Positions 15,298 to 35,047 of a stretch of 64,000 nucleotides of DNA are shown piece after piece. Positions within the stretch are counted from its first letter, which is position 1; each line of letters begins with the position of its first letter. The stretch is from an uncultured Nitrospirales bacterium (GTDB lineage Bacteria; Nitrospirota; Nitrospiria; Nitrospirales; NS-4). The position numbers and the translations under genes were made by a program. The DNA lies in NCBI GenBank assembly GCA_964472655.1, contig CAYYLQ010000012.1, forward strand, positions 5,124 to 69,123, written 5' to 3'. The notes under the pieces are model-generated. The model had not been told where the DNA came from and made no database searches. It was given only the letters and a program-made list of their open reading frames with translations.

Positions 15298-15299
15298 AT

Positions 15300-18463: not shown

Positions 18464-18464
18464 A

Positions 18465-18728
18465 TTACAGCTTGTTTTCGATGGCGTAACGGACCATCTG
18501 CGCCACGTTTCGGATGCCCAGTCGGCGGCCGATGTTGACGCGATGGGTTTCTGCCGTGCGGGGGCTGATGCCCAGTTTTTCGCCGATCTCTCGGCTGGTG
18601 TAGCCATGGGCCACCAGGCTCAACACTTGGCGTTCCCGCGGGGTCAGACGGGGAGTCACTCTCCGTGCGTGTCTCATATCTGCTGCGTGGGCGTTATATT
18701 TGGCTTTCCCGGTCCTGCGTGCGGCCAT
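18465..18728 (-). CDS. LuxR/GerE-type HTH protein (stand-alone DNA-binding domain)
   Basis: 'LTPRERQVLSLVAHGYTSREIGEKLGISPRTAETHRVNIGRRLGIRN' is a GerE-type HTH. Start set at ATG 18728; the track start 18800 is TTG. The start is uncertain. Confidence 0.7.
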   Translation of the reverse strand: MAARRTGKAKYNAHAADMRHARRVTPRLTPRERQVLSLVAHGYTSREIGEKLGISPRTAETHRVNIGRRLGIRNVAQMVRYAIENKL

Positions 18729-18871
18729 GATGTGAATGAACCTCCTTGGTCCTGAACGTATGATACCTGCATCATAGCCTGATCGTCGGGAAAACTGCAA
18801 CCCATGGAAACCCCGAGCATAATTTTATTTTTTACCTTTGATGACATGGCGTGTCTCAAGAAGTATAGAGA

Positions 18872-22766: not shown

Positions 22767-22768
22767 CC

Positions 22769-23503: not shown

Positions 23504-23516
23504 AGGAGAAACAGCC

Positions 23517-24518
23517 ATGCATTACTCTCACCGCCTCTCGCAGACCCGTCTCCATCAGATCGTTGGCTGGTTTGTGCTGGTGCCGATCCTTGTCCTCGTC
23601 GGCGTGCTGGTGCTGGTGGCCCAAAGCGAGAACCTGTTCGAAGAAAAATATCACGTGACCACCCTTTTCAGTGAAAGCTTCGGCTTGAAGCCCGGCAAGC
23701 CGGTGATGCTCTTGGGGATCCAGATCGGCAAGGTCACTAAGGTCGAGGTGACCGCGCAGAACGACGCCGAGGTGACCATGGAGATACTGAAGAAGTATCA
23801 GGACAAGATCCGGCAAAACTCCGTCGCAAAGACCGGCAAGTCCGGAGGCTTCGTGGGCGAGCCGCAGGTCGAGATCACGGTGGGCAACAAGAGCAAACCG
23901 GTTGTCGAGGAGGGAGGGCACATCGAAGCGGAGGAACCGTTCAACATCGCCGACTTCATGACCGAGGTCAAGCCGCTGGTGGAGACCGTCAAGAGGACGC
24001 TCGTCCGGGTGGAAGAGATCACCCAGGACGTGCATGCGACGGTGAAGACCGGCAACGAGACTCTCGGCCACGTGCGGGAGGCGTCCACCCGGCTGCCCGC
24101 CGTGCTGGAGAACGTGAAGGAAACGACGGCGACGATCCGCGAAGCCGCGCTGAGCACGGCCGAACAGCTCCCGGCCATCGTGGCCGGCGTGCGCGTGAGT
24201 GTGGATCGGGCCGGCGAGGCGGCGAAGGACGTGAGGACCGCGACCGCCAAGCTGCCGGCGCTCGTCGAGTCGGTTCAGGGCTCCGCGGACAACGTCAAGG
24301 CGATCACGGGCGATCTCCGGAGCACGGTCCATCAGGATATGTCGCCGCTGGTGCGGTCGGCGCAGGATATGGTGGACGATGTCGGCGAGGTTGTGACCGG
24401 CGCGAAAAAAACCTTCCCGGTCAGTGTCTTCGCGGCCAAGGGGCGCGCGGCGCGGGCAGAGGAGCGGGCCGCCGTCGTGCCCAGGAGTCTACGCGCCGAT
24501 GAGGTGGGCAAGGAATGA
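23517..24518 (+). CDS. mlaD: MlaD/MCE-domain protein
   Basis: ATG 23517 lies after AAAGGAGA. N-terminal TM, then the MCE domain 'YHVTTLFSESFGLKPGKPVMLLGIQIGKVTKVEV', then a long helical C-terminus. Confidence 0.8.
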   Translation: MHYSHRLSQTRLHQIVGWFVLVPILVLVGVLVLVAQSENLFEEKYHVTTLFSESFGLKPGKPVMLLGIQIGKVTKVEVTAQNDAEVTMEILKKYQDKIRQNSVAKTGKSGGFVGEPQVEITVGNKSKPVVEEGGHIEAEEPFNIADFMTEVKPLVETVKRTLVRVEEITQDVHATVKTGNETLGHVREASTRLPAVLENVKETTATIREAALSTAEQLPAIVAGVRVSVDRAGEAAKDVRTATAKLPALVESVQGSADNVKAITGDLRSTVHQDMSPLVRSAQDMVDDVGEVVTGAKKTFPVSVFAAKGRAARAEERAAVVPRSLRADEVGKE

Positions 24519-25438
24519 GACGAGCCGCGCCGGTCATCCTGCTGCTCGCGCTCCTGGCGGGCGGGTGCGTCGGCGGCGCCGCGGGTCCCGAACTGCCCCC
24601 GCTGGCCTCGAAGGTCCGGGACCTCCGTGATAAGGGGCACCTCGCGCTGGCCCGCGGGGATGTGGCGCGGGCCGGGATGATCTTTGATGAGGCGCGACGT
24701 CTGGCGGAGAGCCTGGACGACCGGTCTGGCCTTGCCGTGGCGCTCAACGATTTAGGCACGGTGGCGGCTCTCCAAGGCGAGTATCCCGCGGCGGCCGAAT
24801 TCCATCGCCGGGCCTATGGGATTGCGGTGGAGATCGGCGATCAGGCGCTTGCCGTCGAGGGTCTTAGCTATCGCGGGCAGGCGGCGCATCTTATGGGGGA
24901 TCCCGCGGCGGCGCTCGGCCATTACTCGCAGGCGCTCGCCCTTGCCCGCGAGATCAAGGATCGCCGGGGCGAGGCCGTTGTTCTGAACAACCTGGGTCTG
25001 CTCCAACAGGCGCGCGGCGAGCTGGACCGGGCGGAGCAGAGCTTTCAGCAGGCCCTGGCGATCAACACCGACCTCGCCGAGCGGCGAGCCATGGCCAGCA
25101 ACCACAGCAACCTCGGCGCGCTGTCGGAGAAGCGGGGCCGCCGCGCCGAGGCCCGCAGCCGCTATGAGCAGGCGCTGACTCTCGACAAGGAGACGGAGAG
25201 CCGTCCGGCGATCGAGGCCGACCTTGTCAACCTCGGCCGGCTCTCGGAAGAGGAAAATCATTCGGAAGAGGCCGTGGGCTTTTACGAGCGCGCCTACCGC
25301 GGCTACCTCGCGCTGAATCACGTTCAGAAGGCGATGGATGCCGGGAAGCGTCTGGTCCGGGCCGCGAAGGCCGCCGGGAGAGACGCCGTTGCCGCGGCCT
25401 ACCAGGCCGAACTGAACGCCCTGAGCCCGCAACCCTAG
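24515..25438 (+). CDS. TPR-repeat lipoprotein
   Basis: The ATG overlaps the mlaD stop (ATGA). Lipobox 'LLAGGC'; repeated 'A..Y.QAL.L' TPR units. Confidence 0.8.
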   Translation: MRRAAPVILLLALLAGGCVGGAAGPELPPLASKVRDLRDKGHLALARGDVARAGMIFDEARRLAESLDDRSGLAVALNDLGTVAALQGEYPAAAEFHRRAYGIAVEIGDQALAVEGLSYRGQAAHLMGDPAAALGHYSQALALAREIKDRRGEAVVLNNLGLLQQARGELDRAEQSFQQALAINTDLAERRAMASNHSNLGALSEKRGRRAEARSRYEQALTLDKETESRPAIEADLVNLGRLSEEENHSEEAVGFYERAYRGYLALNHVQKAMDAGKRLVRAAKAAGRDAVAAAYQAELNALSPQP

Positions 25439-25572: not shown

Positions 25573-25588
25573 CTGGCACCGCCCTTGC
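25573..25588 (+). promoter_or_regulatory. Sigma-54 (-24/-12) promoter
   Basis: TGGCAC-cgccc-TTGCT is an exact match to the TGGCAC-N5-TTGCW consensus. It lies 64 nt upstream of ATG 25652, in a 213-nt intergenic region. Confidence 0.6.
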
Positions 25589-25651
25589 TATGTCTTTACC
25601 TATAGGCGCCCCTTGCGGTGCCGCCAAGGGAATACACAACAAGGTATCAAC

Positions 25652-25831
25652 ATGGAAACGGTGAGCGTGATGGTGGTGATCTTCCTGCTAGGCGGGTTCC
25701 TTCGCCGCTTGAGCGGCGACCGCGACCGGGCGCGCCGGTTGGGGCCCGGAATGCCGGCCAGCTTTCTGTATTTCACGGGAAGGCGGTTGGTGATCTCCAA
25801 GCGCACCCATGCACATCCGCCGGAGGAATAG
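25652..25831 (+). CDS. Small membrane protein (59 aa), paralogue of 30991..31152
   Basis: Starts at an internal ATG of track ORF 25613..25831. N-terminal TM, a basic linker, and a conserved 'GPGMPASFLYFTGRRLVISKRT' shared with the second copy. Weak SD. Confidence 0.5.
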   Translation: METVSVMVVIFLLGGFLRRLSGDRDRARRLGPGMPASFLYFTGRRLVISKRTHAHPPEE

Positions 25832-25843
25832 GGAGGAAGGGAT

Positions 25844-26227
25844 ATGGAGAAAATGGAGCCGATCAACAGGGCTGGAGGGACGATGGTTCGCGAGCGTCGG
25901 AAGGCGCGGCGCTACCACCTTCTGACGCGCGTGGATATCCTCGCGGCCGGTGACGCCAACGTCTATTGGGGGAGCATGAGCAACCTGAGCTGGACCGGCG
26001 TAGCTCTCTGCGCCAAGCAGTACCTGAAACCGGGCCAGACGGTCACGATCCGCTTCCGGTTCCACGGTGAGGAGGGATGCGAAACGACGGAATCGCTGAC
26101 CGCGCAGGTCATCTGGCGGAACGGCGACAACACGGGGCTGGAATTCGCTCCGCCGCTGACCACCGGTTCCCCCACGCTGCGGCAGGCGTCGTTTCTTGTC
26201 GAGTATCTCATGATGAAGGAATCGTGA
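25844..26227 (+). CDS. PilZ-domain protein (c-di-GMP receptor motifs), copy 1
   Basis: 'RERRKARRY' (RxxxR) and 'SNLSWTG' (D/NxSxxG). GGGAGGAAGG lies before ATG 25844. Confidence 0.8.
   Translation: MEKMEPINRAGGTMVRERRKARRYHLLTRVDILAAGDANVYWGSMSNLSWTGVALCAKQYLKPGQTVTIRFRFHGEEGCETTESLTAQVIWRNGDNTGLEFAPPLTTGSPTLRQASFLVEYLMMKES
25883..26227 (+). repeat. Direct repeat copy 1 (345 nt, PilZ coding)
   Basis: Aligns without gaps to 32880..33224, with identical runs of 38 and 34 nt (hand-checked). Confidence 0.85.
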
Positions 26228-26254
26228 CGGTCATCGGCAGGGTCGAGGCGCACC

Positions 26255-27664
26255 TTAATCCTGAGACGGGTCGCGTTGAGGCGCCTCCACGGGGGAGGCC
26301 GCTTTCTCTTCCTTGGCGTCTCCGGGGTGGAGGCCGTGTTTCCTGAGCAGCTTGTAGAAGTCGGCGCGGTACCGGCCGGCGATCTGGGCGGCGCGCGAGA
26401 CGTTGCCGCCGGTCAGTTGTAAGACTTCCTTCAGGTATTCCCGCTCGAAATCCTCCCGGGCCTCGGTGAGAGGCTTCACCTGGTTCTCCGCAGGCTGGCT
26501 GACGGCAGGAAGCAGATCGGCCGTGATCATGTCCTGCGTGGAGAGGACCACAGCTTTTTCAATCGTGTTCTCCAGCTCGCGGACGTTGCCGGGCCAGCGG
26601 TGGAGCATCAGCTTCTGCATGGCCTCCGGCAAAAACCCCCGGATGTCCTTGCGCATCCGTTTGGTGCTCTGTTTCAGAAAATGCTGGGCCAGCGGCGGAA
26701 CATCGTCCCGCCGTTCCCGGAGTGGAGGGACAACCAGCGGAACGACCTGGATCCGATAGTAGAGATCCTCCCGGAACGTCCCGGCCCGGACCGCCTGTTC
26801 GAGATCCTTGTTCGTCGCGATGATGATCCGGGCGTCGATCTTCGTCGGGCGCTCGGCGCCGACCTCCAGGACTTCGCGTTCCTGGAGGGCGCGAAGGAGC
26901 TTGGCCTGCAGGGCCAGGGGCATTTCGCTGACCTCGTCCAAGAAGAGAGTCCCCCCGGCGGCGCTCTGAAAGAGCCCGCGTTTCGCATACTGGGCGCCGG
27001 TGAACGCCCCCTTGACGTGACCGAAGAGTTCGCTCTCGAAGAGGGTTTCCGGGATAGCGCTGCAGTTCAGCGCGACGAACGGTCCCCGCGCCCGCGGGCT
27101 GTTGCAGTGGATCACGCGGGCGATCACTTCCTTGCCGGTGCCGGTCTCGCCGGAGAGGCAGACCGTGGCGTCGGTCTCGGCGATGCGCGCGACCTGTTGG
27201 AGCAGGGTCCGCATCTTGGCGCTTCGGGCCACCACGTTTTCCAGTCCATAGAGTTCCGCGACCAGCGAGCGGAGCCGCTCGATCTCGCGGCTCATCCGTT
27301 GCTGAGCCAGGGCCTTCCCGATCACGATCTTGAACTCCCTGTCGTCGAAGGGCTTCGTGAGATAGCCGTAAGCCCCTTTTTGCATGGCCTCGACGGCATT
27401 GGGGATGCTCCCATGGGCGGTGAGGATCAGGATCGGCAGGGACGGATGGATGAGCAGGAGTTCCTCCATGACCGTCAACCCATCCCGGTCCGGGAGCCGG
27501 AGGTCGGTGACGGCCAGGTCGAAGACCTCCCGCTTGGCGACGTCGATGGCCTCTTCGCCGGTCGCGCAGGCGGTGACGGCGAAGCCCATGGCCGTCAGGC
27601 GCATCTTGAGGAGCTGGAGCAGGCCCTGATCATCGTCCACTACGAGTATGCGTTCCTGTGCCAT
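26255..27664 (-). CDS. Sigma-54-dependent response regulator (REC + AAA+ EBP + Fis-type HTH)
   Basis: 'ILVVDDD...DLAVTDLRLPD' receiver domain, Walker A 'GETGTGKE', 'GAFTGA', and C-terminal 'GGNVSRAAQIAGRYRADFYKLLRKHGL'. ATG 27664 is preceded by GAGGA. Confidence 0.9.
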   Translation of the reverse strand: MAQERILVVDDDQGLLQLLKMRLTAMGFAVTACATGEEAIDVAKREVFDLAVTDLRLPDRDGLTVMEELLLIHPSLPILILTAHGSIPNAVEAMQKGAYGYLTKPFDDREFKIVIGKALAQQRMSREIERLRSLVAELYGLENVVARSAKMRTLLQQVARIAETDATVCLSGETGTGKEVIARVIHCNSPRARGPFVALNCSAIPETLFESELFGHVKGAFTGAQYAKRGLFQSAAGGTLFLDEVSEMPLALQAKLLRALQEREVLEVGAERPTKIDARIIIATNKDLEQAVRAGTFREDLYYRIQVVPLVVPPLRERRDDVPPLAQHFLKQSTKRMRKDIRGFLPEAMQKLMLHRWPGNVRELENTIEKAVVLSTQDMITADLLPAVSQPAENQVKPLTEAREDFEREYLKEVLQLTGGNVSRAAQIAGRYRADFYKLLRKHGLHPGDAKEEKAASPVEAPQRDPSQD

Positions 27665-27672
27665 CGGTATCC

Positions 27673-28269
27673 TCAAGGATGACTGTCTTTGTCGGCCGCG
27701 GACGGCATTCTGGTCGGCGGCCGCGTGGGCCGGCTCTTTTCTTTCATTTCCTGATCGATCCGTTTCAGCGCATCAAGCTGTTGCGTCAATTCTTCCACCT
27801 TTTTGTCCCGCGCCTTCACCTCGCGTTGGAACACCAGAGCCGACGAGAACTCCAGATCCAGCAAGTCACGAACGAGGCGGTCCGTGGCCTCGGCGAACGC
27901 ACTATGCTGCGCGAAAAAGATCGGAGGATTTTGCAAGAACTGCAGCCAGAACTGGCTTGAAGCGGCCAGGCGGCTTTGGGGAGCCACGGCGATGACGTCC
28001 TGGAAGTGCTTGGCCGCGACCGTTTGGTCTTCGTACAGGGCCACCAGCGCGCGGGTGAAGTGCGCGCGGTCACAGATGTGGGTTTCGGCGCAGGCGGCCA
28101 GCGAGGCGTCCTGCTCGCGGGCCAGGGCCTGGTAGCGCTGAGCGTCGCGCGGGTCCAGGCTGAAGAGAGGAGCGGACGGAATAGGATGGCTCCGCAGCGG
28201 CGCGCAGGCTCCCGTGCTGGCGATGAGCGCCAACAGGAACCCTCCGATCCATGGTCCCTCGAGTCTCAT
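27673..28269 (-). CDS. Lipoprotein with coiled-coil C-terminus, embedded between kinase and regulator genes
   Basis: Starts at an internal ATG (aa 124 of track ORF 27673..28638) that overlaps the kinase stop (ATGA). Lipobox 'LIASTGAC'. Confidence 0.65.
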   Translation of the reverse strand: MRLEGPWIGGFLLALIASTGACAPLRSHPIPSAPLFSLDPRDAQRYQALAREQDASLAACAETHICDRAHFTRALVALYEDQTVAAKHFQDVIAVAPQSRLAASSQFWLQFLQNPPIFFAQHSAFAEATDRLVRDLLDLEFSSALVFQREVKARDKKVEELTQQLDALKRIDQEMKEKSRPTRPPTRMPSAADKDSHP

Positions 28270-29807
28270 GCGTTGCCTCCCGAGCGCGCCAGGGGAAGGA
28301 TGAAGCGAACCGCCGTGCCTTTGCCGAGGTCGCTTTCGACCCAAATCTGTCCCCCGTGCGCTTCGACCACTTTCTTGGCCAGCGCCAACCCGAGACCGCT
28401 GCCGGCCACGGCAGGCCGCGCTTGCATGCGTCCTTGGTAGAAACGCTCGAAGATATGGGGGAGGTCTTCGGCAGAAATCCCCGGCCCCGTATCCGACACG
28501 GAGATCCGGATGACGCCTGTCCTGGCGTCCGGCTCCATGTGGAGGTTGACCGTCGCCCCTTCCGGACTGAACTTGAGGGCGTTTGAAAGAAGATTGTCCA
28601 GAACCTGTTCGAGCCGGGGACCGTCGGCCGGAACCCACAATCGTCCGGGCGGAGTCTCGGTCAGGATCCGGATGCGCTTGCCCTCCGCCAACAGCCGGAC
28701 CTTGTTCACCGAGGTCTCCGCAATACGCGTCAAGTCGGTGGGGGCGATCCGGTATTCCATCATCCCGGCTTCCATCTTCGAGAGATCGAGCAGGGTGGAG
28801 ATCAAGTGGATCAATCGCTCGCTGCTGTCCATGATGATCCGGAGCGTCTCGCGCTGTTCCTGGCTCAGGGGGCCGGGCACCTCATCCAGAAGGAGTTGCG
28901 TGCCTTCCCGGATGGAGGCCAGCGGGGTGCGCAACTCATGGGAGACATGCGCCAGAAACTCGGCTTTCATGTCGTCCAGCTCCTGGAGTTTTCTGGCCAG
29001 CCCGTTCACGGTGTCCACCAGCTCTCGCAGGTCGTAGGGCGCGGCGACGTCCACGGACTGTCCGAACTGTCCCTGACCGATCCGTCGGATGTGCTCCTGC
29101 AGCTGACGCAAGGGATACAGAATGCTGTAGGTCGCGATGCCGGCCAGACCCAATCCGAGAAGGATGGCCGCGATCACGAGTTGTTGCGTCATGATTTCGG
29201 CGCGGGCCGACCGCGCACGAGAGTCACTGACAAGCGCGCCCACCCGTTCCTCGTGCAGGTTGACATAGGCGTCCAGCGCCGCGGTCATCCGGACCATGAG
29301 CGTGTCCCGCTGCACCTCGTAGCTGACCGGCTTGGGGTTGTGGCTGGAGCGTCGATCGGCCGCGCCGTGGAATAGAGTCTCGTATTCCTGGTGGAGTCGC
29401 TCGAGCCCTTTCAGGAGTCGCTGCGTGTCGGCGGCGGATTCCTGCTCCAGCAGGGCCGCAAGCGTCCGGCGAAAGTCCTCCGCTTCCCCGTCGAAATCGC
29501 CCAGAAAAATGGGATCGGGAACCGCCAGGTATTTCTTCTCGCTCCGGAGCTGGGTCATGAGACTGGCGAGGAGGCGCTTGGCGGTGTCAATGGCGGGGTA
29601 GTGATAGGAGACCAGTTCCGTGCTTAAGACCGTGAGTTGCTGGAGTTGGTTGAGCGCGTAGAAATTGACCCCCGCCATGACCGCGATGATGGCTAGGCAG
29701 CTGAGCGCCAATCGCCAGAAGATCGAAAGCTTCACCGAAGGCCTTCCTTTTTCGAAGGAAACCTTTGAATCAACCCGGCTAGTTTTCCCTACTGTAGGAG
29801 AATCCAT
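28266..29807 (-). CDS. Sensor histidine kinase (2 TM, periplasmic helical sensor, HAMP, HisKA, HATPase_c)
   Basis: H-box 'FLAHVSHELRTPL', N-box 'LDNLLSNALKFS', and G-boxes 'DTGPGI' and 'GSGLGLA'. Confidence 0.9.
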   Translation of the reverse strand: MDSPTVGKTSRVDSKVSFEKGRPSVKLSIFWRLALSCLAIIAVMAGVNFYALNQLQQLTVLSTELVSYHYPAIDTAKRLLASLMTQLRSEKKYLAVPDPIFLGDFDGEAEDFRRTLAALLEQESAADTQRLLKGLERLHQEYETLFHGAADRRSSHNPKPVSYEVQRDTLMVRMTAALDAYVNLHEERVGALVSDSRARSARAEIMTQQLVIAAILLGLGLAGIATYSILYPLRQLQEHIRRIGQGQFGQSVDVAAPYDLRELVDTVNGLARKLQELDDMKAEFLAHVSHELRTPLASIREGTQLLLDEVPGPLSQEQRETLRIIMDSSERLIHLISTLLDLSKMEAGMMEYRIAPTDLTRIAETSVNKVRLLAEGKRIRILTETPPGRLWVPADGPRLEQVLDNLLSNALKFSPEGATVNLHMEPDARTGVIRISVSDTGPGISAEDLPHIFERFYQGRMQARPAVAGSGLGLALAKKVVEAHGGQIWVESDLGKGTAVRFILPLARSGGNA

Positions 29808-29840
29808 ACAGGACCAGTCAATTGTAAATCAATAAGATCC

Positions 29841-29860
29841 GGGTTTTCACGTGGAAACCC
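29841..29860. promoter_or_regulatory. Near-palindrome, candidate enhancer (UAS) for the sigma-54 activator
   Basis: GGGTTTTCAC/GTGGAAACCC (one mismatched pair) lies about 100 nt upstream of the -24 element at 29953. A second inverted repeat, AATGTCCC-N17-GGGACATT, sits at 29913-29945. Confidence 0.3.
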
Positions 29861-29952
29861 TGAATACAACGTCCTTCAGTGTACACCTTCCTGACGCCGG
29901 AATTGGGCTGACAATGTCCCCCATCATGTTTGAATGAGGGACATTTCTGCTA

Positions 29953-29968
29953 TGGCCTCCGCCTTGCT
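29953..29968 (+). promoter_or_regulatory. Sigma-54 (-24/-12) promoter
   Basis: TGGCCT-ccgcc-TTGCT, with GG and GC at canonical spacing, about 100 nt upstream of ATG 30069. Divergent from the kinase operon. Confidence 0.55.
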
Positions 29969-30068
29969 CACAAGCAAAAAAGACGTATGCCAGGAGCCTG
30001 GTGAAGGTTCTGCCCGGGGGGTTAGCCGGCGACGGCATGAAAGAAATGAAGAGAAAGGAGGCTCTGCG

Positions 30069-30404
30069 ATGAAGATACTCGTCGTCACACTGTTCAGCTT
30101 GGCGTTGGTGATGGGCCTGGTCGTTACATCCAGCCACGCTGCTTCACCCAACCAGACCGATCCGACCCTCGCCAAGTTTGTCGGCGGCACGGTTGAGGGG
30201 ATTGATCCGATGCAGAAAATCGTCAGCGTCCAATCCGAAGAAAAAGGCGAAGTGCGGCTCCTCGCATTTACGGATGCCGAAATGGTGAAGGGACTGACCA
30301 AAGGGGATCGTGTGGTGATCGAGCTGGACGAGCGTGGCATGGCCAAGAAGATAGTCAAGGCAGAACCTTCTTCAAACGGCACGCCCGATTCGACGAAGAA
30401 TTGA
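30069..30404 (+). CDS. Small secreted protein (111 aa)
   Basis: Starts at an internal ATG after AAAGGAGG (7-nt spacer). Signal peptide MKILVVTLFSLALVMGLVVTSSHA. The upstream part of the track ORF overlaps the sigma-54 promoter. Confidence 0.6.
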   Translation: MKILVVTLFSLALVMGLVVTSSHAASPNQTDPTLAKFVGGTVEGIDPMQKIVSVQSEEKGEVRLLAFTDAEMVKGLTKGDRVVIELDERGMAKKIVKAEPSSNGTPDSTKN

Positions 30405-30433
30405 GCCGGCCCTTTGCAGAGCGAAAGGAGCGA

Positions 30434-30724
30434 ATGATACCGGAGAACAGCTGGCACCCGTGGAGGATGACGACCGTCGGTCTGTTGCTGGTAGGCGCGA
30501 CGGTCTTCGTGACCACGCTGGTGATGGGATACCGGAACAGTCTGCAGGAGGCCCCGACGCCACGGGCGACGATGCACTCGTCCGGCTCGGTCCGGAAGGC
30601 CTCGGTGCCGAGCCAGAGCGATGTGGATGCGTGCAAGGCTTACGCCCAGCAGCGCTCGGGGGCGGGGGGCGATACCGAATACCGGACCGCCTACCGTTCC
30701 TGCATGCGTCAGAAAGGGCACTGA
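30434..30724 (+). CDS. Single-TM protein with Cys-containing C-terminal domain (96 aa)
   Basis: ATG 30434 lies after AAAGGAG. TM segment 'TTVGLLLVGATVFVTTLVMG'. No family recognised. Confidence 0.5.
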   Translation: MIPENSWHPWRMTTVGLLLVGATVFVTTLVMGYRNSLQEAPTPRATMHSSGSVRKASVPSQSDVDACKAYAQQRSGAGGDTEYRTAYRSCMRQKGH

Positions 30725-30739
30725 AGGAGGTGAGGGAGC

Positions 30740-30928
30740 GTGGAACAATTGGTTGACGGGCTGCAACTCGTGGGCTTTTTAGTGGTGGGCGTAACCGTCC
30801 TCGCCGCCCTGGTGGCGGGCGTCATCTGTATCGCGGTCTTCCTGTACATGACCGATCGGAAGATCGTGATCGTCCAGGGCCAGCTGCGTCCCCATGAGAC
30901 CGATGTGCCCGCTGAAATTCGATCGTGA
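30740..30928 (+). CDS. Small TM protein (62 aa) carrying the 'FLYMTDRKIVIV' motif
   Basis: GTG start after GAAGGAGG. One long hydrophobic helix followed by the motif shared with neighbouring small proteins. Confidence 0.45.
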   Translation: MEQLVDGLQLVGFLVVGVTVLAALVAGVICIAVFLYMTDRKIVIVQGQLRPHETDVPAEIRS

Positions 30929-30990
30929 GGCAGCGCGTTGATTGGCGCGGTCGTGGGGAGTCCCGTAAGCAAGGCTTTTGGAGGAATGAG

Positions 30991-31152
30991 ATGGAGGACA
31001 TAGGCGCGTTCTTTGTCTTCGCCGTTGCCATGGGCGTCGTCCTTCGCACGGCGGTCAGGGGCAAACGGACGCGACGGCGGGGGCCGGGAACGCCGGCCCG
31101 TTTCGTTCACTTCACGGGCCGGCGGCTCAGAATCATCACGCGAACCGACTGA
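30991..31152 (+). CDS. Small membrane protein (53 aa), paralogue of 25652..25831
   Basis: ATG 30991 lies after GGAGGA (5-nt spacer). 'GPGTPARFVHFTGRRLRIITRT' aligns with copy 1. Confidence 0.55.
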   Translation: MEDIGAFFVFAVAMGVVLRTAVRGKRTRRRGPGTPARFVHFTGRRLRIITRTD

Positions 31153-31592
31153 TGAGCTCGAGGAGGAAACCGATGCGAACGATGATGCGACGGACAGTGT
31201 TCGTGCAGGTGTTGATATGGACCTTGGCCGTGACGACCCTTCTGACCGGGATTGTTCCGCCGGACGCCCGGGCGATGCTGGCCCCGCCCACGGCGGCCGG
31301 TGAGCCGGGCGCCGGCCTGAATCGAGCCGTTGATCTCCAAACGGTGCAGAGCGCCTTGGAGACCAAAGTGGTCAGTCAACGATTGGCGGACTACGGCTTG
31401 AACCAGGAGGAGATCAGCGCGCGCGTGAATCGGTTGTCGGACGCCCAGTTACATCAACTGGCCACGCAAATCGACGCGATGATGCCCGCCGGTGATGCGG
31501 GCTTTGGCATCGTGATCGCGCTGCTGGTTATCGCGATTCTGGCAGTCATTCTGATCTATCTGCTGGACCACCGAATCGTGATCACGAAGTAG
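31152..31592 (+). CDS. PA2779-family-like protein (N-terminal signal/TM, C-terminal TM)
   Basis: 'RLADYGLNQEEISARVNRLSDAQLHQLATQIDAMMPAGDAG' followed by a C-terminal TM matches my recollection of the PA2779 family. It lies adjacent to a C39-like peptidase. Confidence 0.65.
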   Translation: MSSRRKPMRTMMRRTVFVQVLIWTLAVTTLLTGIVPPDARAMLAPPTAAGEPGAGLNRAVDLQTVQSALETKVVSQRLADYGLNQEEISARVNRLSDAQLHQLATQIDAMMPAGDAGFGIVIALLVIAILAVILIYLLDHRIVITK

Positions 31593-31612
31593 CGGCGACG
31601 ACCACATCCACG

Positions 31613-32239
31613 ATGCGAGGACGAACCATGTGTACAGGGCGCCGGGGGATCGGTCGAGGGGCGGCGAGGCTGAGCGTGAGCATATGGAGTCTCGTGATGG
31701 TCCTCGGGTGCGCGGGTCCGCCGCTTGCGGACCGCGCGACTGGCGTCCCGACGCAGTCTGAAGCGTCCGCCCACCGAGTCGCCGTGCCGTTCTTCCCGGA
31801 CGATACGGACCAATGCGGGCCCGCGGTCCTTGCCAGCGTTCTGACCTATTGGGGTTTCAGAACCGACCCCGTGGCGTTGAAGGAAGAAATCTATCTGCCG
31901 CGGCTGAAGGGCACCCTGCCGCTTGATCTCCTGTTGGCCGCGCAGGCGCGAGGCCTTGAGGCCGAAATCTATGAAGGCGGGCTCAACGATCTGAAATCCG
32001 AACTGGAAGCCGGCCGTCCGCTGGTGGCGTTGCTGGACCTGGGATTCGCAATCTTTCCTCAAGGCCATTACGTGGTGGTGACCGGCTATGACGACCGGCG
32101 CCAGGGCGTGTACGTCCACTCGAGCCTGGAGCAGGACGTGTTTATTCCTTACGAGCGGTTCCTCCGGAGCTGGGACAAGACCGGCCGGTGGACCCTCCTG
32201 GTGTCGCCGCCTGAAAGCCGTCTTCGGAGTCACGCATGA
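31613..32239 (+). CDS. C39-like (PA2778-type) cysteine peptidase lipoprotein
   Basis: Lipobox 'VMVLGCAG', catalytic-type 'QCGPAVLASVL', and 'GHYVVVTGYD'. Confidence 0.8.
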   Translation: MRGRTMCTGRRGIGRGAARLSVSIWSLVMVLGCAGPPLADRATGVPTQSEASAHRVAVPFFPDDTDQCGPAVLASVLTYWGFRTDPVALKEEIYLPRLKGTLPLDLLLAAQARGLEAEIYEGGLNDLKSELEAGRPLVALLDLGFAIFPQGHYVVVTGYDDRRQGVYVHSSLEQDVFIPYERFLRSWDKTGRWTLLVSPPESRLRSHA

Positions 32240-32835
32240 GCAGACGAAGACCGTCGTGGGGGGGAGCGCTGCTGCTGATGGCTTTGCTGGGAAGCGTGCC
32301 GGCCTGTTCGAGCCTTCCACGGATTGTGATCCTGCACGATCCGTTGACGCCCCAAGAGCACGTGACGCTGGGGGAAGCGTATCAGGCGCAGGGCGATCGG
32401 GAGATGGCGGGGCGAGAATTCGCGATCGCGTTGCGTCAACGGCCGGAATACGTCCCGGCCCTCATCGGGATAGGCAACCTTTCGTTTGAACGGGAAGCGC
32501 TGGAAGAAGCCGAAGCGTTCTATCGGCGGGCTTTGGATGCCGCGCCTGATCATCCCGGCGCCAGCAATAACCTTGCGATGGTGTATCTGGCGCGCGGCGA
32601 TCGGTTGGATGAGGCGGAACGGATGGCCCGCAACGCCTTGGAACGTGGAGGTTCCCTCCGACCCTATGCGCTGGATACCTTGGCTAGGATTTACATGCTG
32701 CAGGGACGCTACCGTGAGGCCCGGCGTGCTCTCACACTGGCCGAAGCGATAGTTCCTCCGGAAGACACCCATTTTCACCAGTGGCTGAGCCGGTCGCGCC
32801 GCGAACTGGCCGCCGTTTATCCGTCGGACGAATGA
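32236..32835 (+). CDS. TPR-repeat lipoprotein
   Basis: The ATG overlaps the peptidase stop (ATGA). Lipobox 'LGSVPAC'. TPR units such as 'LGEAYQAQGDREMAGREFAIAL' and 'EAEAFYRRALDAAP'. Confidence 0.8.
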   Translation: MSRRRPSWGGALLLMALLGSVPACSSLPRIVILHDPLTPQEHVTLGEAYQAQGDREMAGREFAIALRQRPEYVPALIGIGNLSFEREALEEAEAFYRRALDAAPDHPGASNNLAMVYLARGDRLDEAERMARNALERGGSLRPYALDTLARIYMLQGRYREARRALTLAEAIVPPEDTHFHQWLSRSRRELAAVYPSDE

Positions 32836-32849
32836 GGAGGGCACAAAGC

Positions 32850-33224
32850 ATGGAGCCAGCGAGAAGGACCGTAGGGACAATGGTGGGCGAGCGTCGGAAG
32901 ACGCGGGGCTACCACCTTCTGACGCGCGTGGATATTCTGGTGGCCGGTGATTCCAACGTTTATTGGGGGAGCATGAGCAACCTGAGCTGGACCGGCGTGG
33001 CTCTCTGCGCCAAGCAGTACCTGAAACCGGGCCGGACGGTCACAATCCGTTTTCGGTTCCATGGCGCGGAAGGACGCGAGGTGACGGAATCGCTGGCGGC
33101 GGAGGTCATTTGGCGGAACGGCGACAACACGGGCCTGGAATTCACCCCGCCGTTGGCCACCGGTTCTCCGGCTCTGCAGCAGGCACCGTTTCTTGTCGCA
33201 CATCTCATGATGAAAGGAGCGTGA
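32850..33224 (+). CDS. PilZ-domain protein, copy 2
   Basis: 'GERRKTRGY' and 'SNLSWTG'. 94 of 114 aligned residues are identical to copy 1 (hand count). Confidence 0.8.
   Translation: MEPARRTVGTMVGERRKTRGYHLLTRVDILVAGDSNVYWGSMSNLSWTGVALCAKQYLKPGRTVTIRFRFHGAEGREVTESLAAEVIWRNGDNTGLEFTPPLATGSPALQQAPFLVAHLMMKGA
32880..33224 (+). repeat. Direct repeat copy 2 (345 nt, PilZ coding)
   Basis: See 25883..26227. Confidence 0.85.
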
Positions 33225-33235
33225 CGAACGTGGAT

Positions 33236-33451
33236 ATGAATTTAACCATGGAGCGACCGAAGCTTTCGACCGTGCAGGAGGTAGCCACCTACTTGGCCGT
33301 CAACAAACGGACCGTCTATCGCCTGCTGAAAGACCGCCGGCTGCCTGCTTACAGAGTCGGCGGACAGTGGCGATTCAAGCTGGAGGTCATCGAAGACTGG
33401 ATGCGCCGGCAGGGCGACCTGAAACACAGAAAGGCTCTCGCCAACGTTTGA
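33236..33451 (+). CDS. Excisionase-family (MerR-superfamily) HTH DNA-binding protein
   Basis: 'LSTVQEVATYLAVNKRTVYRLLKDRRLPAYRVGGQWRFKLEVIEDWM' is the canonical excisionase-type HTH. The start may instead be 33230 (GTG) or 33248. Confidence 0.8.
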   Translation: MNLTMERPKLSTVQEVATYLAVNKRTVYRLLKDRRLPAYRVGGQWRFKLEVIEDWMRRQGDLKHRKALANV

Positions 33452-33489
33452 AGTGCAAGTGCGACGGTCCGGGATAGAGCAGGAGAGTC

Positions 33490-34314
33490 GTGATGAAGTG
33501 CGCGCGGTCTATTGGAGTAGGGGCGTTGGTCGCCCTGTTAGGGGTCTGGTGCGGAGTGGCAGTGACGGCTAATGCGCTTGGGACGGAGAAACAGGACTGG
33601 CAACTCAGCTCGGCGTTGACGTATGAAAGCGGGACGTATGGGACGGGGACTCGGACGGAAACGTACTACGTCCCGTTTACGTTGAAGCGGTTCTTTGACC
33701 AGGCGGACCTCTCGCTGACCGTCCCCTTCCTGGCCATGCGGACGACGGGAGAGACGACCCTGGTCGACGGAAGACCGCAAAGAATCCGCCTGGGAAGAAC
33801 CGGTTTGGCTCCGACGGGGACAGTGACCAAGGAAGGGTTGGGCGACACGGTACTCAAAGGCCGGTATTATGCCGTGGACGAGCACGGCTTGCTGCCGACC
33901 ATCGCGCTGGTGGCCAAGGTCAAGTTCCCCACGGCGGATGAGTCCCAAGGATTGGGAACCGGCAAGTTCGATGAGGGCTTCGGCGTGGAGGTCAGCCGGC
34001 GGTTTCTTGAACGGTTCATCGGGTATTTTGATCTGAGCTACACGATCATCGGCAGTCCCGCCGGAGTCGACCTGAAAAATCAGACTACATACGACGTCGG
34101 CCTTGGCTATCAATGCACGCCCCAGGCGCTGGGCAGTCTCTTCTATGAAGAGCGCACCGCGCTCCTCGCCGGCACGCAGAACCCGCGCTCGTTGCTGGCC
34201 CTCTGGGACTATAAGCTGACGCCGAGCTTCAGGCTGAACGCGGTTGGAGAAATCGGCCTTTCATCGGGCGCGCCGGATTACGGCTTCACCGTCGGAGTGG
34301 CGATGCGCTTCTAA
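33490..34314 (+). CDS. Outer-membrane beta-barrel protein (MetA-pathway/phenol-degradation-like transporter family)
   Basis: Signal peptide, alternating beta-strand pattern, 'GLGDTVLKGRYY', and a terminal aromatic 'VGVAMRF'. Confidence 0.7.
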   Translation: MMKCARSIGVGALVALLGVWCGVAVTANALGTEKQDWQLSSALTYESGTYGTGTRTETYYVPFTLKRFFDQADLSLTVPFLAMRTTGETTLVDGRPQRIRLGRTGLAPTGTVTKEGLGDTVLKGRYYAVDEHGLLPTIALVAKVKFPTADESQGLGTGKFDEGFGVEVSRRFLERFIGYFDLSYTIIGSPAGVDLKNQTTYDVGLGYQCTPQALGSLFYEERTALLAGTQNPRSLLALWDYKLTPSFRLNAVGEIGLSSGAPDYGFTVGVAMRF

Positions 34315-34334
34315 TTGTGTCAGAATACCAACTC

Positions 34335-34589
34335 ATGGATAGGTTATCGGGACGCGTCCTGTGTGTGTTGATTGCGGCAGCGCTGGTCTGCTCTTCTGCC
34401 CTGGCTCCGATCGCGGTGTCTTACGCCGCGGAGCAGAAGAAGGAGGGGGAAGAGTCGAAGAAGAATTTCGAAGAGACAAAGCGCGATCTGAAGAAGGCCG
34501 GCGAGAAGACCGAAAAGGCGATCTCGGAAGGGGCCAGCGCCGTGGCCCAAAAGGTCAAGAAAGCGTTCGAACGGGACCAGAAAAAGTAA
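34335..34589 (+). CDS. Small secreted Lys/Glu-rich protein
   Basis: Signal peptide 'VLCVLIAAALVCSSALAPIAVSYA', then a charged helical region. Ends ...AAA AAG TAA. Confidence 0.55.
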   Translation: MDRLSGRVLCVLIAAALVCSSALAPIAVSYAAEQKKEGEESKKNFEETKRDLKKAGEKTEKAISEGASAVAQKVKKAFERDQKK

Positions 34590-35047
34590 TCTTCCGCGGC
34601 GTTCTTCTCGCCCTTCTTGCGCTTACCGCCTGCGCGCCGCCATACCATGTTCTTACCAAGCAGGCCAACAGCCTGAGCGCCGCCTGTAACCAAGCCGTTG
34701 CGCGCTTTGCCGCCGCTCCCGGCAGCGGGACGCGTCAGGATGTCCTGGGTCAGCTCAAAGAGTTGAACGCGGCGCTGATCGAGACGGCGGGGTACGAGAA
34801 AGAAGCCCGGCGCACGAACTCCGTGGACCTCATTGACGCCAACCGCGCGTTCCGGGAAACGGGCCACGCGTGGGCGAGCTGTTCCCTCAAGTACAACAAG
34901 GTTCTCGTGGACATCGGAGGGCGTGAGGCGGCGCGGTACAACTACCAGGGATTGCTCGCTCGGCTCACCGCCCCCCAATTCGTCGCCGAGCGTCGCCTGG
35001 TTCAGGCGGCCCTCAACGAGCTCGGGCCAGCGCCTTCCTCGCCGTAG
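34589..35047 (+). CDS. Lipoprotein-like ORF with no canonical start codon (possible -1 frameshift fusion or ATC start)
   Basis: The frame reads 'IFRGVLLALLALTAC...' (lipobox), followed by a plausible 130-aa domain. There is no ATG/GTG/TTG between the lipobox and the upstream gene's end. The frame is -1 relative to the upstream ORF, at G-AAA-AAG-TAA. Confidence 0.4.
   Translation: MFRGVLLALLALTACAPPYHVLTKQANSLSAACNQAVARFAAAPGSGTRQDVLGQLKELNAALIETAGYEKEARRTNSVDLIDANRAFRETGHAWASCSLKYNKVLVDIGGREAARYNYQGLLARLTAPQFVAERRLVQAALNELGPAPSSP

What the first reader, a model, noticed from the sequence alone, without database searches (positions are those of the whole stretch)
25573..35047. Sigma-54-wired envelope/c-di-GMP locus: kinase-lipoprotein-EBP operon divergent from a long operon of small membrane proteins, a PA2779/PA2778-like pair, PilZ, an HTH and an OMP
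Seen in the sequence:
- The minus-strand operon is a histidine kinase, a lipoprotein (ATGA-coupled) and a GAFTGA-containing enhancer-binding response regulator.
- Two -24/-12 promoters point away from it, one on each side (25573 and 29953).
- The right-hand promoter heads up to twelve co-oriented genes with short gaps or overlaps. They are a secreted 111-aa protein, three small TM proteins, a PA2779-like protein, a C39-like cysteine peptidase lipoprotein, a TPR lipoprotein, PilZ, an excisionase-type HTH, an outer-membrane barrel, a Lys-rich secreted protein and a lipoprotein-like ORF.
- The left-hand promoter heads a mini version: a small TM paralogue followed by a PilZ paralogue.

Inference: this is one regulon in which an envelope signal (through the kinase and accessory lipoprotein) switches on a set of envelope proteins whose output is tied to c-di-GMP sensing. 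None of the structural genes has a defined function, so the ensemble is a candidate uncharacterised envelope system.
Basis: partly seen in the sequence, partly recalled or inferred. Interest (0 to 1): 0.7.

Follow-up and report, generated by a model that had tools for sequence, protein, structure and literature searches.

The report
Sigma-54 envelope-stress regulon in Nitrospirota
A Nitrospirota sensor kinase, helper lipoprotein and sigma-54 activator sit beside a conserved 230-bp promoter cassette that drives a mosaic operon of uncharacterised envelope proteins, so the locus is a real and testable regulon but a variant of known designs, not a new kind of machine.

Summary
All genes and both -24/-12 sites are present, with one correction: the left promoter reads towards the activator gene (convergent), not away from it.

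- **Signalling module.** The kinase-lipoprotein-activator trio is conserved across Nitrospirota. It has the gene order of E. coli QseE-QseG-QseF. The activator is 48% identical to GlrR/QseF, but the lipoprotein is not a detectable QseG homologue.
- **Right promoter.** It lies in a ~230-bp cassette holding a TGT-N12-ACA element (the QseF UAS consensus), a CTGAA-N10-TTCAG dyad, the -24/-12 site and a conserved leader. All 29 closer relatives with enough upstream DNA have it beside the kinase. Extra copies precede other genes.
- **Cargo.** It varies: the same envelope block, osmoprotectant and mechanosensitive-channel genes, small-membrane-protein/PilZ sets, or PilZ alone. I infer an osmotic or envelope-stress regulon.
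- **Mosaic operon.** DUF6627-C39-TPR (PA2779/PA2778, here split into two genes) is an independent triad found in at least six phyla, often beside MlaEFD.
- **Left promoter.** It is conserved but lacks the cassette, so its link to this activator is unproven.

Protein functions remain inferred. Interest is moderate.

The parts
21987..25438 (+). Neighbouring MlaE / ABC ATPase / MlaD / TPR-lipoprotein operon (context)
   Evidence: Pfam MlaE, ABC_tran, MlaD and TPR. The same operon abuts the activator gene in L096 and L100, and MlaEF(D) abuts the DUF6627 triad in about 12 other genomes.
25574..25589 (+). Left sigma-54-type -24/-12 promoter, TGGCACcgcccTTGCT
   Evidence: Perfect consensus match. Conserved in L086 and L100 together with upstream blocks. 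Not matched by the right-hand cassette model.
25652..25831 (+). 59-aa small TM protein (sTM family), paralogue of the one at 30991-31152
   Evidence: 44% identity. The family is tiny: 54 clusters, no Pfam match. Conserved TPARF..TGRRL.I..R tail.
25844..26227 (+). PilZ protein, 127 aa
   Evidence: PF07238, 44.1 bits. RRKAR and NLSWTG motifs present. 81% identical to the right-hand PilZ.
26255..27676 (-). Sigma-54 enhancer-binding response regulator, GlrR/QseF-like
   Evidence: Pfam domains. Best NCBIfam hit is GlrR at 490.8 bits, below the 763 cut-off. 48% identical to E. coli GlrR over the full length.
27673..28269 (-). 198-aa accessory lipoprotein: lipobox, helical N-domain, 56-residue C-terminal helix
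   Evidence: 857 homologues. Found between kinase and activator in 80 loci. AF2 pLDDT 80. No detectable homology to QseG.
28266..29807 (-). Sensor histidine kinase: two TM segments, ~155-aa periplasmic domain, HAMP-HisKA-HATPase
   Evidence: 34% identical to GlrK over HAMP to CA.
29778..29994 (+). ~230-bp sigma-54 promoter cassette. Contains TGTAGGAGAATCCATACA (29793-29810, overlaps the kinase start codon), ATTG-N5-CAAT (29821-29833), CTGAA-N10-TTCAG (29860-29879), the -24/-12 site TGGCCTccgccTTGCT (29953-29968) and a conserved leader.
   Evidence: Alignment of 25 distinct orthologous regions. nhmmer E=7e-42, one copy in the window and 2 or more in several relatives. Repeated before other genes.
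30069..30404 (+). 111-aa secreted protein, weakly CusF-like
   Evidence: Signal peptide in the translation. PF11604 E=0.0016, below cut-off. Homologues follow a cassette copy in L004, L006, L007 and L165.
30401..30724 (+). 107-aa TM protein with Cys pair; relatives carry a glycine-zipper insert
   Evidence: Homologues in L006, L007, L087 and L106-110. The L007 homologue shows a weak Gly-zipper_YMGG match.
30740..30928 (+). 62-aa TM protein
   Evidence: Homologues at 54-73% identity.
30991..31152 (+). 53-aa small TM protein (sTM family)
31173..31592 (+). DUF6627 / PA2779-family protein: signal peptide, two periplasmic helices, G-G-D juxtamembrane motif, TM helix, HRIVITK tail
   Evidence: NF033919 78 bits, PF20332. 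Alignments. AF2 helices at low confidence.
31613..32239 (+). C39-like cysteine peptidase lipoprotein (N-terminal half of the PA2778 model)
   Evidence: NF033920 137 bits over model positions 4-149; PF13529 and PF03412. Lipobox Cys33 is conserved in 97% and Cys68 and His152 in 100% of 59 relatives. Nearest solved structures are the ComA and LahT double-glycine peptidases.
32236..32835 (+). TPR lipoprotein (C-terminal half of the PA2778 model)
   Evidence: NF033920 model positions 155-253, plus many TPR families. A separate gene in 51 of 53 loci.
32850..33224 (+). PilZ protein, 124 aa
   Evidence: PF07238 36.6 bits. RRKTR and NLSWTG motifs. The same position after the TPR gene in L007 and L165.
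33248..33451 (+). Excisionase-type HTH protein, 67 aa
   Evidence: PF12728 63 bits and TIGR01764 64 bits. Absent at this position in L007 and L165.
33493..34314 (+). Outer-membrane beta-barrel, Phenol_MetA_deg family
   Evidence: PF13557 37.8 bits. 73% identical orthologue in L007; 41% copies near the triad in L019, L022 and L023.
34317..34589 (+). Lys/Glu-rich secreted ORF, 90 aa
   Evidence: No homologue detected in related loci, so it may be lineage-specific.
34586..35047 (+). Lipoprotein-like ORF, start codon uncertain
   Evidence: 67-68% identical orthologues in L006 and L007. The L006 orthologue starts at TTG and has a lipobox. No canonical start codon here.

Best explanation
**What it is.** This is a three-component envelope-signalling system with its sigma-54 regulon.

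**Signalling path (inferred).**
1. A kinase with a ~155-aa periplasmic domain is modulated by a periplasmic lipoprotein encoded between the kinase and the regulator.
2. The kinase phosphorylates a GlrR/QseF-like enhancer-binding protein.
3. That protein binds the upstream part of a ~230-bp cassette: TGT-N12-ACA at 29793-29810, and probably the CTGAA-N10-TTCAG dyad at 29860-29879.
4. It then activates the -24/-12 promoter at 29953.
5. One transcript covers up to twelve envelope genes.

**Likely signal (inferred).** Sister lineages put glucosylglycerate and trehalose synthesis genes and a mechanosensitive channel under the same cassette. The likeliest input is therefore osmotic or envelope stress.

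**The operon is a mosaic.**
- (a) A CusF-like periplasmic protein plus small membrane proteins.
- (b) The widely distributed DUF6627-C39-TPR triad.
- (c) A small-TM/PilZ pair that the triad has split.
- (d) An HTH, an outer-membrane barrel and lipoproteins.

**The triad (inferred).** I propose that the catalytically intact lipoprotein peptidase, helped by the TPR lipoprotein, acts on the membrane-anchored DUF6627 protein at its conserved G-G-D juxtamembrane motif.

**PilZ (inferred).** The PilZ proteins would add c-di-GMP input, perhaps through the conserved cytoplasmic tail of the small TM proteins.

**Shown versus inferred.**
- Shown: gene content, conservation, promoter and cassette architecture, and homologies.
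- Inferred: the signal, the DNA binding, the proteolysis and the c-di-GMP coupling.
For: **Module conservation**
- The kinase-lipoprotein-activator order is found in 80 loci.
- The activator is 48% identical to GlrR, including the HTH, and GlrR is its top NCBIfam hit.
- The kinase is 34% identical to GlrK from HAMP to CA.
- The lipoprotein model has a helical N-domain plus a long C-terminal helix. This is the architecture described for QseG (PMC12691602).

**Promoter**
- A -24/-12 site lies at a fixed distance, divergent from the kinase, in 29 of 29 closer loci with at least 475 nt of upstream DNA. Background is 0.115 sites per kb per strand.
- The alignment shows invariant GG and CTTGCT flanked by variable bases.
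- A cassette model finds one copy in the window at E=7e-42 and extra copies in relatives.
- Those copies precede a CusF-like gene, a glycine-zipper gene, MPGP, PilZ and an RlpA-like gene. In L013 and L021 the upstream element and a -24/-12 site sit directly before DUF6627.
- The QseF UAS consensus is TGTN12ACA (PMC6075780).

**Cargo in relatives**
- MPGP, GpgS-like, GT2, Msc, DUF5752, TreT, OtsA and OtsB.
- The full envelope block recurs in L007 and in L165/L166.

**Triad**
- 70 species genomes, with fixed gene order.
- Cys68 and His152 are invariant and the lipobox Cys33 is conserved in 97% of 59 relatives.
- The nearest solved structures are double-glycine peptidases.
- DUF6627 has a conserved G-G-D motif just before its TM helix.

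**PilZ**
- Binding motifs are intact.
- The small TM gene is always followed directly by PilZ, or by the triad and then PilZ.
Against: - There are no expression or binding data. Everything rests on sequence comparison.
- The lipoprotein shows no homology to QseG (hhalign probability 0.3%; no QseG among the Foldseek hits shown).
- The kinase sensor domain does not align with GlrK.
- About half of the orthologous cassettes read TGC rather than TGT in the first half-site.
- In kinase-proximal copies the element overlaps kinase coding sequence, which could account for part of its conservation.
- The left promoter lacks the cassette.
- More distant kinase modules (lipoprotein 36-41% identical) have no such promoter nearby: 0 of 18.
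- DUF6627 matches no double-glycine leader family. The spacing of its hydrophobic residues before GG differs from canonical leaders.
- The C39 protein lacks the canonical Gln at -6 and the Asp after the His that ComA and LahT have.
- The window itself carries no osmoprotectant genes.
Confidence: 0.6

Rival explanations
1. The right operon is only a string of unrelated cassettes that happen to be co-transcribed. There is no common function beyond shared regulation, and the triad, the PilZ pair and the outer-membrane protein each act on their own.
For: - The triad occurs in 70 genomes, mostly without the kinase, PilZ or the outer-membrane protein.
- The kinase module occurs with other cargo.
- p2-p3-p4-PilZ exists without the triad in L098, L106-110 and L163.
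- The genes downstream of PilZ differ between the window, L007 and L165.
Against: - The block from p1 to PilZ and the outer-membrane protein recurs in order in at least three lineages that differ at 64-76% identity.
- In L013 and L021 the triad itself is directly preceded by the conserved upstream element and a -24/-12 site.
Confidence: 0.3
2. The C39 lipoprotein and the TPR lipoprotein form a cell-wall or lipoprotein-processing pair analogous to MepS-NlpI. DUF6627 would be an inner-membrane regulator and not the substrate. The module would remodel peptidoglycan or the outer membrane during stress.
For: - Both proteins are lipoproteins, and the lipobox Cys is conserved in 97%.
- One cassette copy in L004 drives an RlpA-like DPBB gene.
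- An SLT lytic transglycosylase lies just downstream in both the window and L007.
- The triad lies next to MlaEFD in about 12 genomes.
Against: - The nearest solved relatives are double-glycine leader peptidases, not NlpC/P60 enzymes.
- The strict 1:1 adjacency with DUF6627 fits a dedicated partner or substrate.
Confidence: 0.2
3. The C39 protein and its small neighbour form a toxin-immunity or bacteriocin-processing pair, as was suggested in passing for PA2778 in a T6SS TraDIS screen.
For: - Preprint 10.1101/733030 lists PA2778 as a candidate toxin next to a small gene that was depleted for insertions.
- C39 domains usually process bacteriocin leaders.
Against: - The peptidase has a Sec/lipoprotein signal, which does not fit a T6SS cargo.
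- There is no ABC exporter, bacteriocin precursor or T6SS gene nearby.
- The triad sits among housekeeping genes in many phyla.
- The pair was never characterised.
Confidence: 0.05
4. The two -24/-12 matches are chance, and the operons are transcribed from sigma-70 promoters.
For: - The loose motif count in the window is at chance level.
- The right site deviates from TGGCAC at two positions.
Against: Both sites are conserved in position and sequence in orthologous loci while the flanking bases vary. They also sit beside a sigma-54 activator gene.
Confidence: 0.03

Closest known systems
QseE(GlrK)-QseG-QseF(GlrR) three-component system of Enterobacteria with its sigma-54 target glmY (PMC6075780, PMC12691602)
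   Same: - Gene order kinase-lipoprotein-activator.
- The activator is 48% identical.
- The kinase cytoplasmic part is 34% identical.
- The sensor layout is TM, ~150-aa periplasmic domain, TM, HAMP.
- The lipoprotein has a helical N-domain and a long C-terminal helix.
- A sigma-54 target lies next to the kinase gene with a TGT-N12-ACA element.
   Different: - The lipoprotein is not detectably homologous to QseG.
- The sensor domain does not align.
- The target is a divergent protein-coding operon and not an sRNA (no Rfam hit).
- One clear TGT-N12-ACA copy instead of three.
- The phylum is Nitrospirota, whereas the qseEGF survey reported Pseudomonadota only.
ZraP / ZraS-ZraR of E. coli (from my own knowledge)
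   Same: A sigma-54 two-component system is transcribed divergently from a sigma-54 promoter whose first product is a small periplasmic protein. It is an envelope-stress theme.
   Different: - There is no lipoprotein between kinase and regulator in zraSR.
- ZraR scores lower than GlrR here: 392 against 491 bits.
- The first gene here is CusF-like and not CpxP-like.
PA2779 / PA2778 gene pair of Pseudomonas aeruginosa (NCBIfam NF033919 and NF033920; uncharacterised)
   Same: A DUF6627 protein is followed by a C39-like peptidase with TPR repeats, in the same order.
   Different: - Here, and in 51 of 53 related loci, the peptidase and the TPR repeats are separate ATGA-coupled lipoprotein genes.
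- Here the pair is embedded in a sigma-54 operon with PilZ.
Double-glycine peptidase domains of PCAT/ComA exporters (PDB 3k8u, 6mpz)
   Same: The papain-like C39 fold and the Cys motif DCGPAVLASV and the His are shared. The putative substrate has a Gly-Gly motif after an amphipathic helix.
   Different: - The enzyme is a free periplasmic lipoprotein and not a cytoplasmic domain of an ABC exporter.
- The Gln at -6 and the Asp are not conserved.
- The motif lies before a C-terminal TM helix, not after an N-terminal leader.
LapD-LapG control of LapA (from my own knowledge)
   Same: A periplasmic cysteine protease in a locus tied to c-di-GMP sensing. It is an analogy for how PilZ and the peptidase might be linked.
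   Different: - LapG is a BTLCP/C93 enzyme, not C39.
- The c-di-GMP receptor there is the membrane protein LapD, not a PilZ protein.
- No adhesin substrate is present here.

Membership tests
QseEGF (GlrK-QseG-GlrR) system | Operon order kinase, lipoprotein, sigma-54 response regulator | tested here: met
   Conserved in 80 loci.
QseEGF (GlrK-QseG-GlrR) system | Regulator is a GlrR/QseF equivalog | tested here: inconclusive
   Best NCBIfam hit is GlrR at 490.8 bits, but the cut-off is 763. 48% identity over the full length.
QseEGF (GlrK-QseG-GlrR) system | Lipoprotein homologous to QseG | tested here: not met
   No Pfam or NCBIfam hit. hhalign probability 0.3%. QseG structures are in the PDB but do not appear among the Foldseek hits shown.
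QseEGF (GlrK-QseG-GlrR) system | Kinase homologous to GlrK, including the 4HB sensor domain | tested here: inconclusive
   34% identity over residues 208-509 only. The periplasmic part does not align. GlrK is not among the top 25 NCBIfam hits.
QseEGF (GlrK-QseG-GlrR) system | UAS with consensus TGTN12ACA upstream of a sigma-54 promoter | tested here: met
   TGTAGGAGAATCCATACA at 29793-29810, about 160 nt upstream of -24. Conserved, though about half of the orthologues read TGC. Consensus taken from PMC6075780.
QseEGF (GlrK-QseG-GlrR) system | Target is the sRNA glmY | tested here: not met
   No Rfam family reaches its gathering score anywhere in the window. The promoter heads a protein-coding operon.
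Sigma-54-dependent promoter | GG at -24 and GC at -12 with canonical spacing, upstream of a gene and near an activator gene | tested here: met
   Conserved in orthologues.
Sigma-54-dependent promoter | Transcription depends on RpoN and an activator | not testable with these tools
   Needs RNA or genetic data.
PA2779 family (NF033919 / DUF6627) | Score above the curated cut-off | tested here: met
   78 bits against a cut-off of 40; PF20332 38.8 bits against 27.
PA2778 family cysteine peptidase (NF033920) | One protein with a C39 domain and TPR repeats scoring above 150 bits | tested here: not met
   The C39 gene scores 137.1 bits over model positions 4-149. The TPR gene scores 39.2 bits over positions 155-253. 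It is split into two genes, as in 51 of 53 relatives.
PA2778 family cysteine peptidase (NF033920) | Catalytic Cys and His present | tested here: met
   Cys68 and His152 are invariant in 59 relatives and align with the ComA and LahT catalytic residues.
PilZ c-di-GMP receptors (PF07238) | Domain score above cut-off, plus the RxxxR and (D/N)xSxxG motifs | tested here: met
   44.1 and 36.6 bits against a cut-off of 22.5. RRKAR/RRKTR and NLSWTG are visible.
PilZ c-di-GMP receptors (PF07238) | Binds c-di-GMP | not testable with these tools
   Needs DRaCALA or ITC.

The most novel reading that the evidence does not exclude
DUF6627-C39-TPR would be a self-contained periplasmic proteolytic switch found in many phyla. 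An outer-membrane-anchored double-glycine-type cysteine peptidase, positioned by its TPR lipoprotein partner, would clip an inner-membrane-anchored helical-hairpin protein at its invariant G-G-D motif. This would release or inactivate a periplasmic factor linked to Mla-type lipid transport. In this Nitrospirales clade the switch would have been recruited, by a copy-and-paste 230-bp sigma-54 cassette, into an osmotic-stress regulon and coupled to c-di-GMP through a PilZ/small-TM pair.
Probability: 0.2. Interest if true: 0.7.

Novelty: new variant of a known kind. Interest (0 to 1): 0.45.

Why it matters
- **A wider design.** The accessory-lipoprotein two-component design known from QseEGF in Pseudomonadota would also exist in Nitrospirota, a phylum of environmentally important and mostly uncultured nitrifiers. 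It would use an unrelated lipoprotein there, which suggests the design arose or diverged beyond recognition more than once.
- **A regulon signature.** The 230-bp cassette can be searched for in Nitrospira genomes to list the regulon's members. It also shows how genes are recruited into a regulon by promoter duplication.
- **A concrete hypothesis.** The uncharacterised PA2779/PA2778 pair, which is also present in Pseudomonas aeruginosa, now has a testable hypothesis and conserved neighbours (MlaEFD).
- **Limit.** None of this is established biochemically.

Tried and rejected
- **DUF6627 structure.** The AF2 model had pLDDT 55.8, too poor for a fold search.
- **PDB profile searches.** DUF6627 and the lipoprotein gave nothing significant.
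- **Lipoprotein fold search.** Foldseek gave only weak TPR-like hits (E of 0.38 or higher) and no QseG among the hits shown.
- **QseG homology.** hhalign of the lipoprotein family against E. coli QseG was negative.
- **Double-glycine leader.** No such family matched DUF6627, even at E up to 10.
- **sRNA target.** An Rfam scan for a glmY-like sRNA or a riboswitch gave nothing. There are no tRNAs.
- **Sigma-54 control of DUF6627 in general.** Only 4 of 62 loci have a site within 400 nt upstream, against about 3 expected. It is not a family-wide property.
- **Osmoprotectant genes in the window.** None found.
- **Shared UAS at the two window promoters.** They share only the 9-mer ACGTCCTTC. The cassette model finds a single copy.
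- **Literature.** PA2778, PA2779 and DUF6627 have incidental mentions only.

Full report
**1. What is in the window**

The window is about 63% G+C. Its closest protein relatives are named Nitrospirae, Nitrospirales or Nitrospiraceae MAGs.

Minus strand:
- A histidine kinase lies at 28266-29807, with HAMP, HisKA and HATPase_c and a weak CHASE3 match.
- A 198-aa lipoprotein lies at 27673-28269. Its ATG overlaps the kinase stop codon.
- A response regulator lies at 26255-27676, with Response_reg, Sigma54_activat, AAA_lid_14 and HTH_8 domains and a GAFTGA loop.

Right side, plus strand, with gaps under 65 nt or overlaps:
- a 111-aa secreted protein with a sub-threshold CusF match;
- three small membrane proteins of 107, 62 and 53 aa;
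- a DUF6627/PA2779-family protein;
- a C39 lipoprotein;
- a TPR lipoprotein;
- a PilZ protein;
- an excisionase-type HTH;
- a Phenol_MetA_deg outer-membrane barrel;
- a Lys/Glu-rich secreted ORF;
- a lipoprotein-like ORF.

Left side, plus strand: a 59-aa membrane protein and a PilZ protein. They are paralogues of two right-hand genes at 44% and 81% identity.

Three details need correction:
- The left promoter reads towards the activator gene, so it is convergent.
- The PA2778 model is covered by two genes here.
- The last ORF has no canonical start codon near its lipobox.

**2. The signalling module**

The lipoprotein family has 857 detectable relatives. In 80 metagenome loci it always sits between a kinase 56-91% identical and an activator 65-88% identical to the window's.

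The order kinase-lipoprotein-activator is that of E. coli glrK-qseG-glrR. Comparison with the E. coli proteins gave these results:
- The activator is 48% identical to GlrR over its full length, including the HTH. GlrR is its best NCBIfam hit, although below the equivalog cut-off.
- The kinase is 34% identical to GlrK from HAMP to the ATPase domain, but the periplasmic part does not align.
- The lipoprotein model (pLDDT 80) has a four-helix N-terminal domain and a 56-residue C-terminal helix. This is the general architecture reported for QseG (PMC12691602).
- Profile comparison with E. coli QseG is negative. Foldseek does not list the QseG entries among the hits shown, although those entries are in the PDB.

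I therefore say the module works like QseEGF. I do not file it as a member.

**3. The right promoter is part of a conserved, repeated cassette**

- **Site conservation.** In every closer locus with at least 475 nt of upstream DNA (29 of 29; lipoprotein at least 44% identical), a site (T/C/A)GG(C/T)AC-N5-TTGCT lies 150-220 nt from the kinase start (about 390-420 nt in L106-L110, where the cassette is tandemly duplicated) and points away from it. The background rate is 0.115 sites per kb per strand.
- **Distant loci.** None of the 18 more distant loci has one.
- **Alignment.** In an alignment of 25 distinct sequences, GG and CTTGCT are invariant while the bases between them vary.
- **Conserved blocks.** Upstream lie TGTAGGAGAATCCATACA (29793-29810), ATTG-N5-CAAT (29821-29833) and CTGAA-N10-TTCAG (29860-29879). 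A leader block follows the promoter.
- **First block.** It fits TGT-N12-ACA, the consensus given for QseF binding sites (PMC6075780). About half of the orthologues read TGC.
- **Coding overlap.** In the kinase-proximal copy the first block overlaps the kinase start codon, so coding could explain part of its conservation.

The whole ~230-bp module also occurs where there is no kinase gene. A model built from the alignment finds one copy in the window (E=7e-42). It finds second copies within single loci of relatives, and the L093/L165 contig carries three.

Those copies sit in front of different genes:
- a CusF-like gene;
- a glycine-zipper membrane gene;
- a mannosyl-3-phosphoglycerate-phosphatase-family gene;
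- a PilZ gene;
- an RlpA-like gene.

In L013 and L021 the upstream element and a -24/-12 site sit directly in front of the DUF6627 gene. The cassette is therefore a portable cis-regulatory unit that marks a regulon.

A sigma-70-like -10 element (TACAAT) for the kinase operon lies inside the second block.

**4. The left promoter**

It is a perfect consensus match. It is conserved in L086 and L100 together with its own upstream blocks. It is not matched by the cassette model and shares only a 9-mer with the right region. It is very probably a sigma-54 promoter. Whether the adjacent activator serves it is open.

**5. Cargo and likely signal**

Behind the kinase-proximal cassette, relatives carry one of several gene sets:
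- a CusF-like gene, as here;
- an osmoprotectant set: MPGP-family phosphatase, GpgS-like synthase, GT2, mechanosensitive channel, DUF5752, TreT, and in some also OtsA and OtsB;
- the small-membrane-protein set followed by PilZ;
- PilZ alone.

In L165/L166 and L007 the osmoprotectant genes are followed, on the same strand, by further cassette copies and then by the same envelope block as in the window. That block runs from the CusF-like gene through the small TM genes, DUF6627, C39, TPR and PilZ, with one or two further genes before an outer-membrane barrel.

The window has no osmoprotectant genes. From this I infer an osmotic or envelope-stress regulon. That is an inference from gene content, not a measurement.

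**6. The operon is a mosaic**

- **Triad distribution.** DUF6627-C39-TPR was found in 70 species-level genomes. They come from Nitrospirota, Desulfobacterota-type lineages, Methylomirabilota, Omnitrophota, Elusimicrobiota and Aquificota. Gene order and spacing are fixed. The kinase, PilZ and the outer-membrane protein are usually absent.
- **Split peptidase.** C39 and TPR are separate genes in 51 of 53 loci.
- **Mla neighbours.** In about 12 genomes the triad directly adjoins MlaE-MlaF(-MlaD). In the window a MlaE-ABC-MlaD-TPR operon lies at 21987-25438, and in L096 and L100 it abuts the activator gene.
- **Small TM and PilZ.** The small TM family is tiny, with 54 clusters. Its gene is always followed directly by PilZ, or by the triad and then PilZ. 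The triad appears to be inserted into an older small-TM/PilZ pair.

**7. How the triad might work (inferred)**

- The peptidase is a lipoprotein with invariant Cys68 and His152.
- Its nearest solved relatives are the double-glycine peptidase domains of ComA and LahT. It shares the motif DCGPAVLASV with ComA.
- DUF6627 has a signal peptide, two periplasmic helices, a conserved G-G-D motif, a TM helix and a conserved HR(V/I)(V/I)(V/I)TK end.
- A dedicated protease-substrate pair, with cleavage at the juxtamembrane Gly-Gly, is the simplest reading.
- Against it, DUF6627 matches no double-glycine leader family, its hydrophobic spacing differs from canonical leaders, and the enzyme lacks the canonical Gln and Asp.
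- A MepS-NlpI-like envelope-remodelling pair is a serious rival.
- A toxin-immunity reading, raised in passing for PA2778, fits the lipoprotein signal and the housekeeping neighbours poorly.

**8. c-di-GMP**

Both PilZ proteins keep RxxxR and NxSxxG. Nothing else ties the locus to c-di-GMP: no GGDEF or EAL gene lies within it. The link is plausible but rests on two motifs.

**9. Verdict**

- The regulatory interpretation is well supported for the right operon.
- The idea of a single new envelope system is weakened by the mosaic structure.

What is new:
- a QseEGF-like system with an unrelated lipoprotein in Nitrospirota;
- a copy-and-paste sigma-54 cassette;
- a split PA2778 variant with conserved Mla neighbours.

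I rate it as a new variant of known kinds, of moderate interest.

Noticed in passing
window 21987-25438; L027, L034, L037, L039, L044, L047, L052, L054, L060, L063, L069: A MlaE / ABC ATPase / MlaD / TPR-lipoprotein operon lies just left of the locus. In about 12 other genomes MlaEF(D) directly adjoins the DUF6627-C39-TPR triad on the same strand, which suggests a functional link to MCE-type lipid transport.
   Followed up: partly
window 34586-34640: The last ORF has no ATG, GTG or TTG between the stop of the preceding ORF and its lipobox (VIFRGVLLALLALTAC). Its L006 orthologue starts at TTG. The start is either non-canonical or lies far upstream, overlapping the Lys-rich ORF.
   Followed up: partly
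L004 6728-7216, L005, L017: Two copies of the 230-bp cassette lie back to back. One drives an RlpA-like DPBB gene and the other a CusF-like gene, in genomes where the kinase module is not nearby.
   Followed up: partly
L106-L110, upstream of the kinase: The cassette is tandemly duplicated. The kinase-proximal copy has a degenerate -24/-12 site and the distal copy a perfect TGGCAC-N5-TTGCT.
   Followed up: partly
window 29821-29850 (- strand): A sigma-70-like promoter (GTGAAA, 18 nt, TACAAT) for the kinase operon lies inside a conserved cassette block. The -10 element ends about 13 nt before the first in-frame ATG of the kinase, so the mRNA may be nearly leaderless, and the promoter overlaps the putative activator sites.
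   Followed up: partly
window 25795-25843 and 32800-32849: Similarity between the two PilZ copies extends about 25 nt upstream into the 3' ends of the preceding genes (HPPEE* and YPSDE*). This marks the edge of the duplication.
   Followed up: partly
window 20491-20506: A third good sigma-54-like match, TGGCGCGCGACTTGCT, lies inside or at the end of an unannotated 208-aa ORF (19968-20594), about 800 nt upstream of a transaldolase gene.
   Followed up: no
window 14001-16000 and 56001-58000: Two segments have G+C of 0.52 against 0.63 elsewhere. They may be foreign or AT-rich islands.
   Followed up: no
window 15911-19956: A UvrA-like ABC protein (850 aa) and an ORF with a zf-HC2 anti-sigma-type zinc finger lie upstream of the region.
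   Followed up: no
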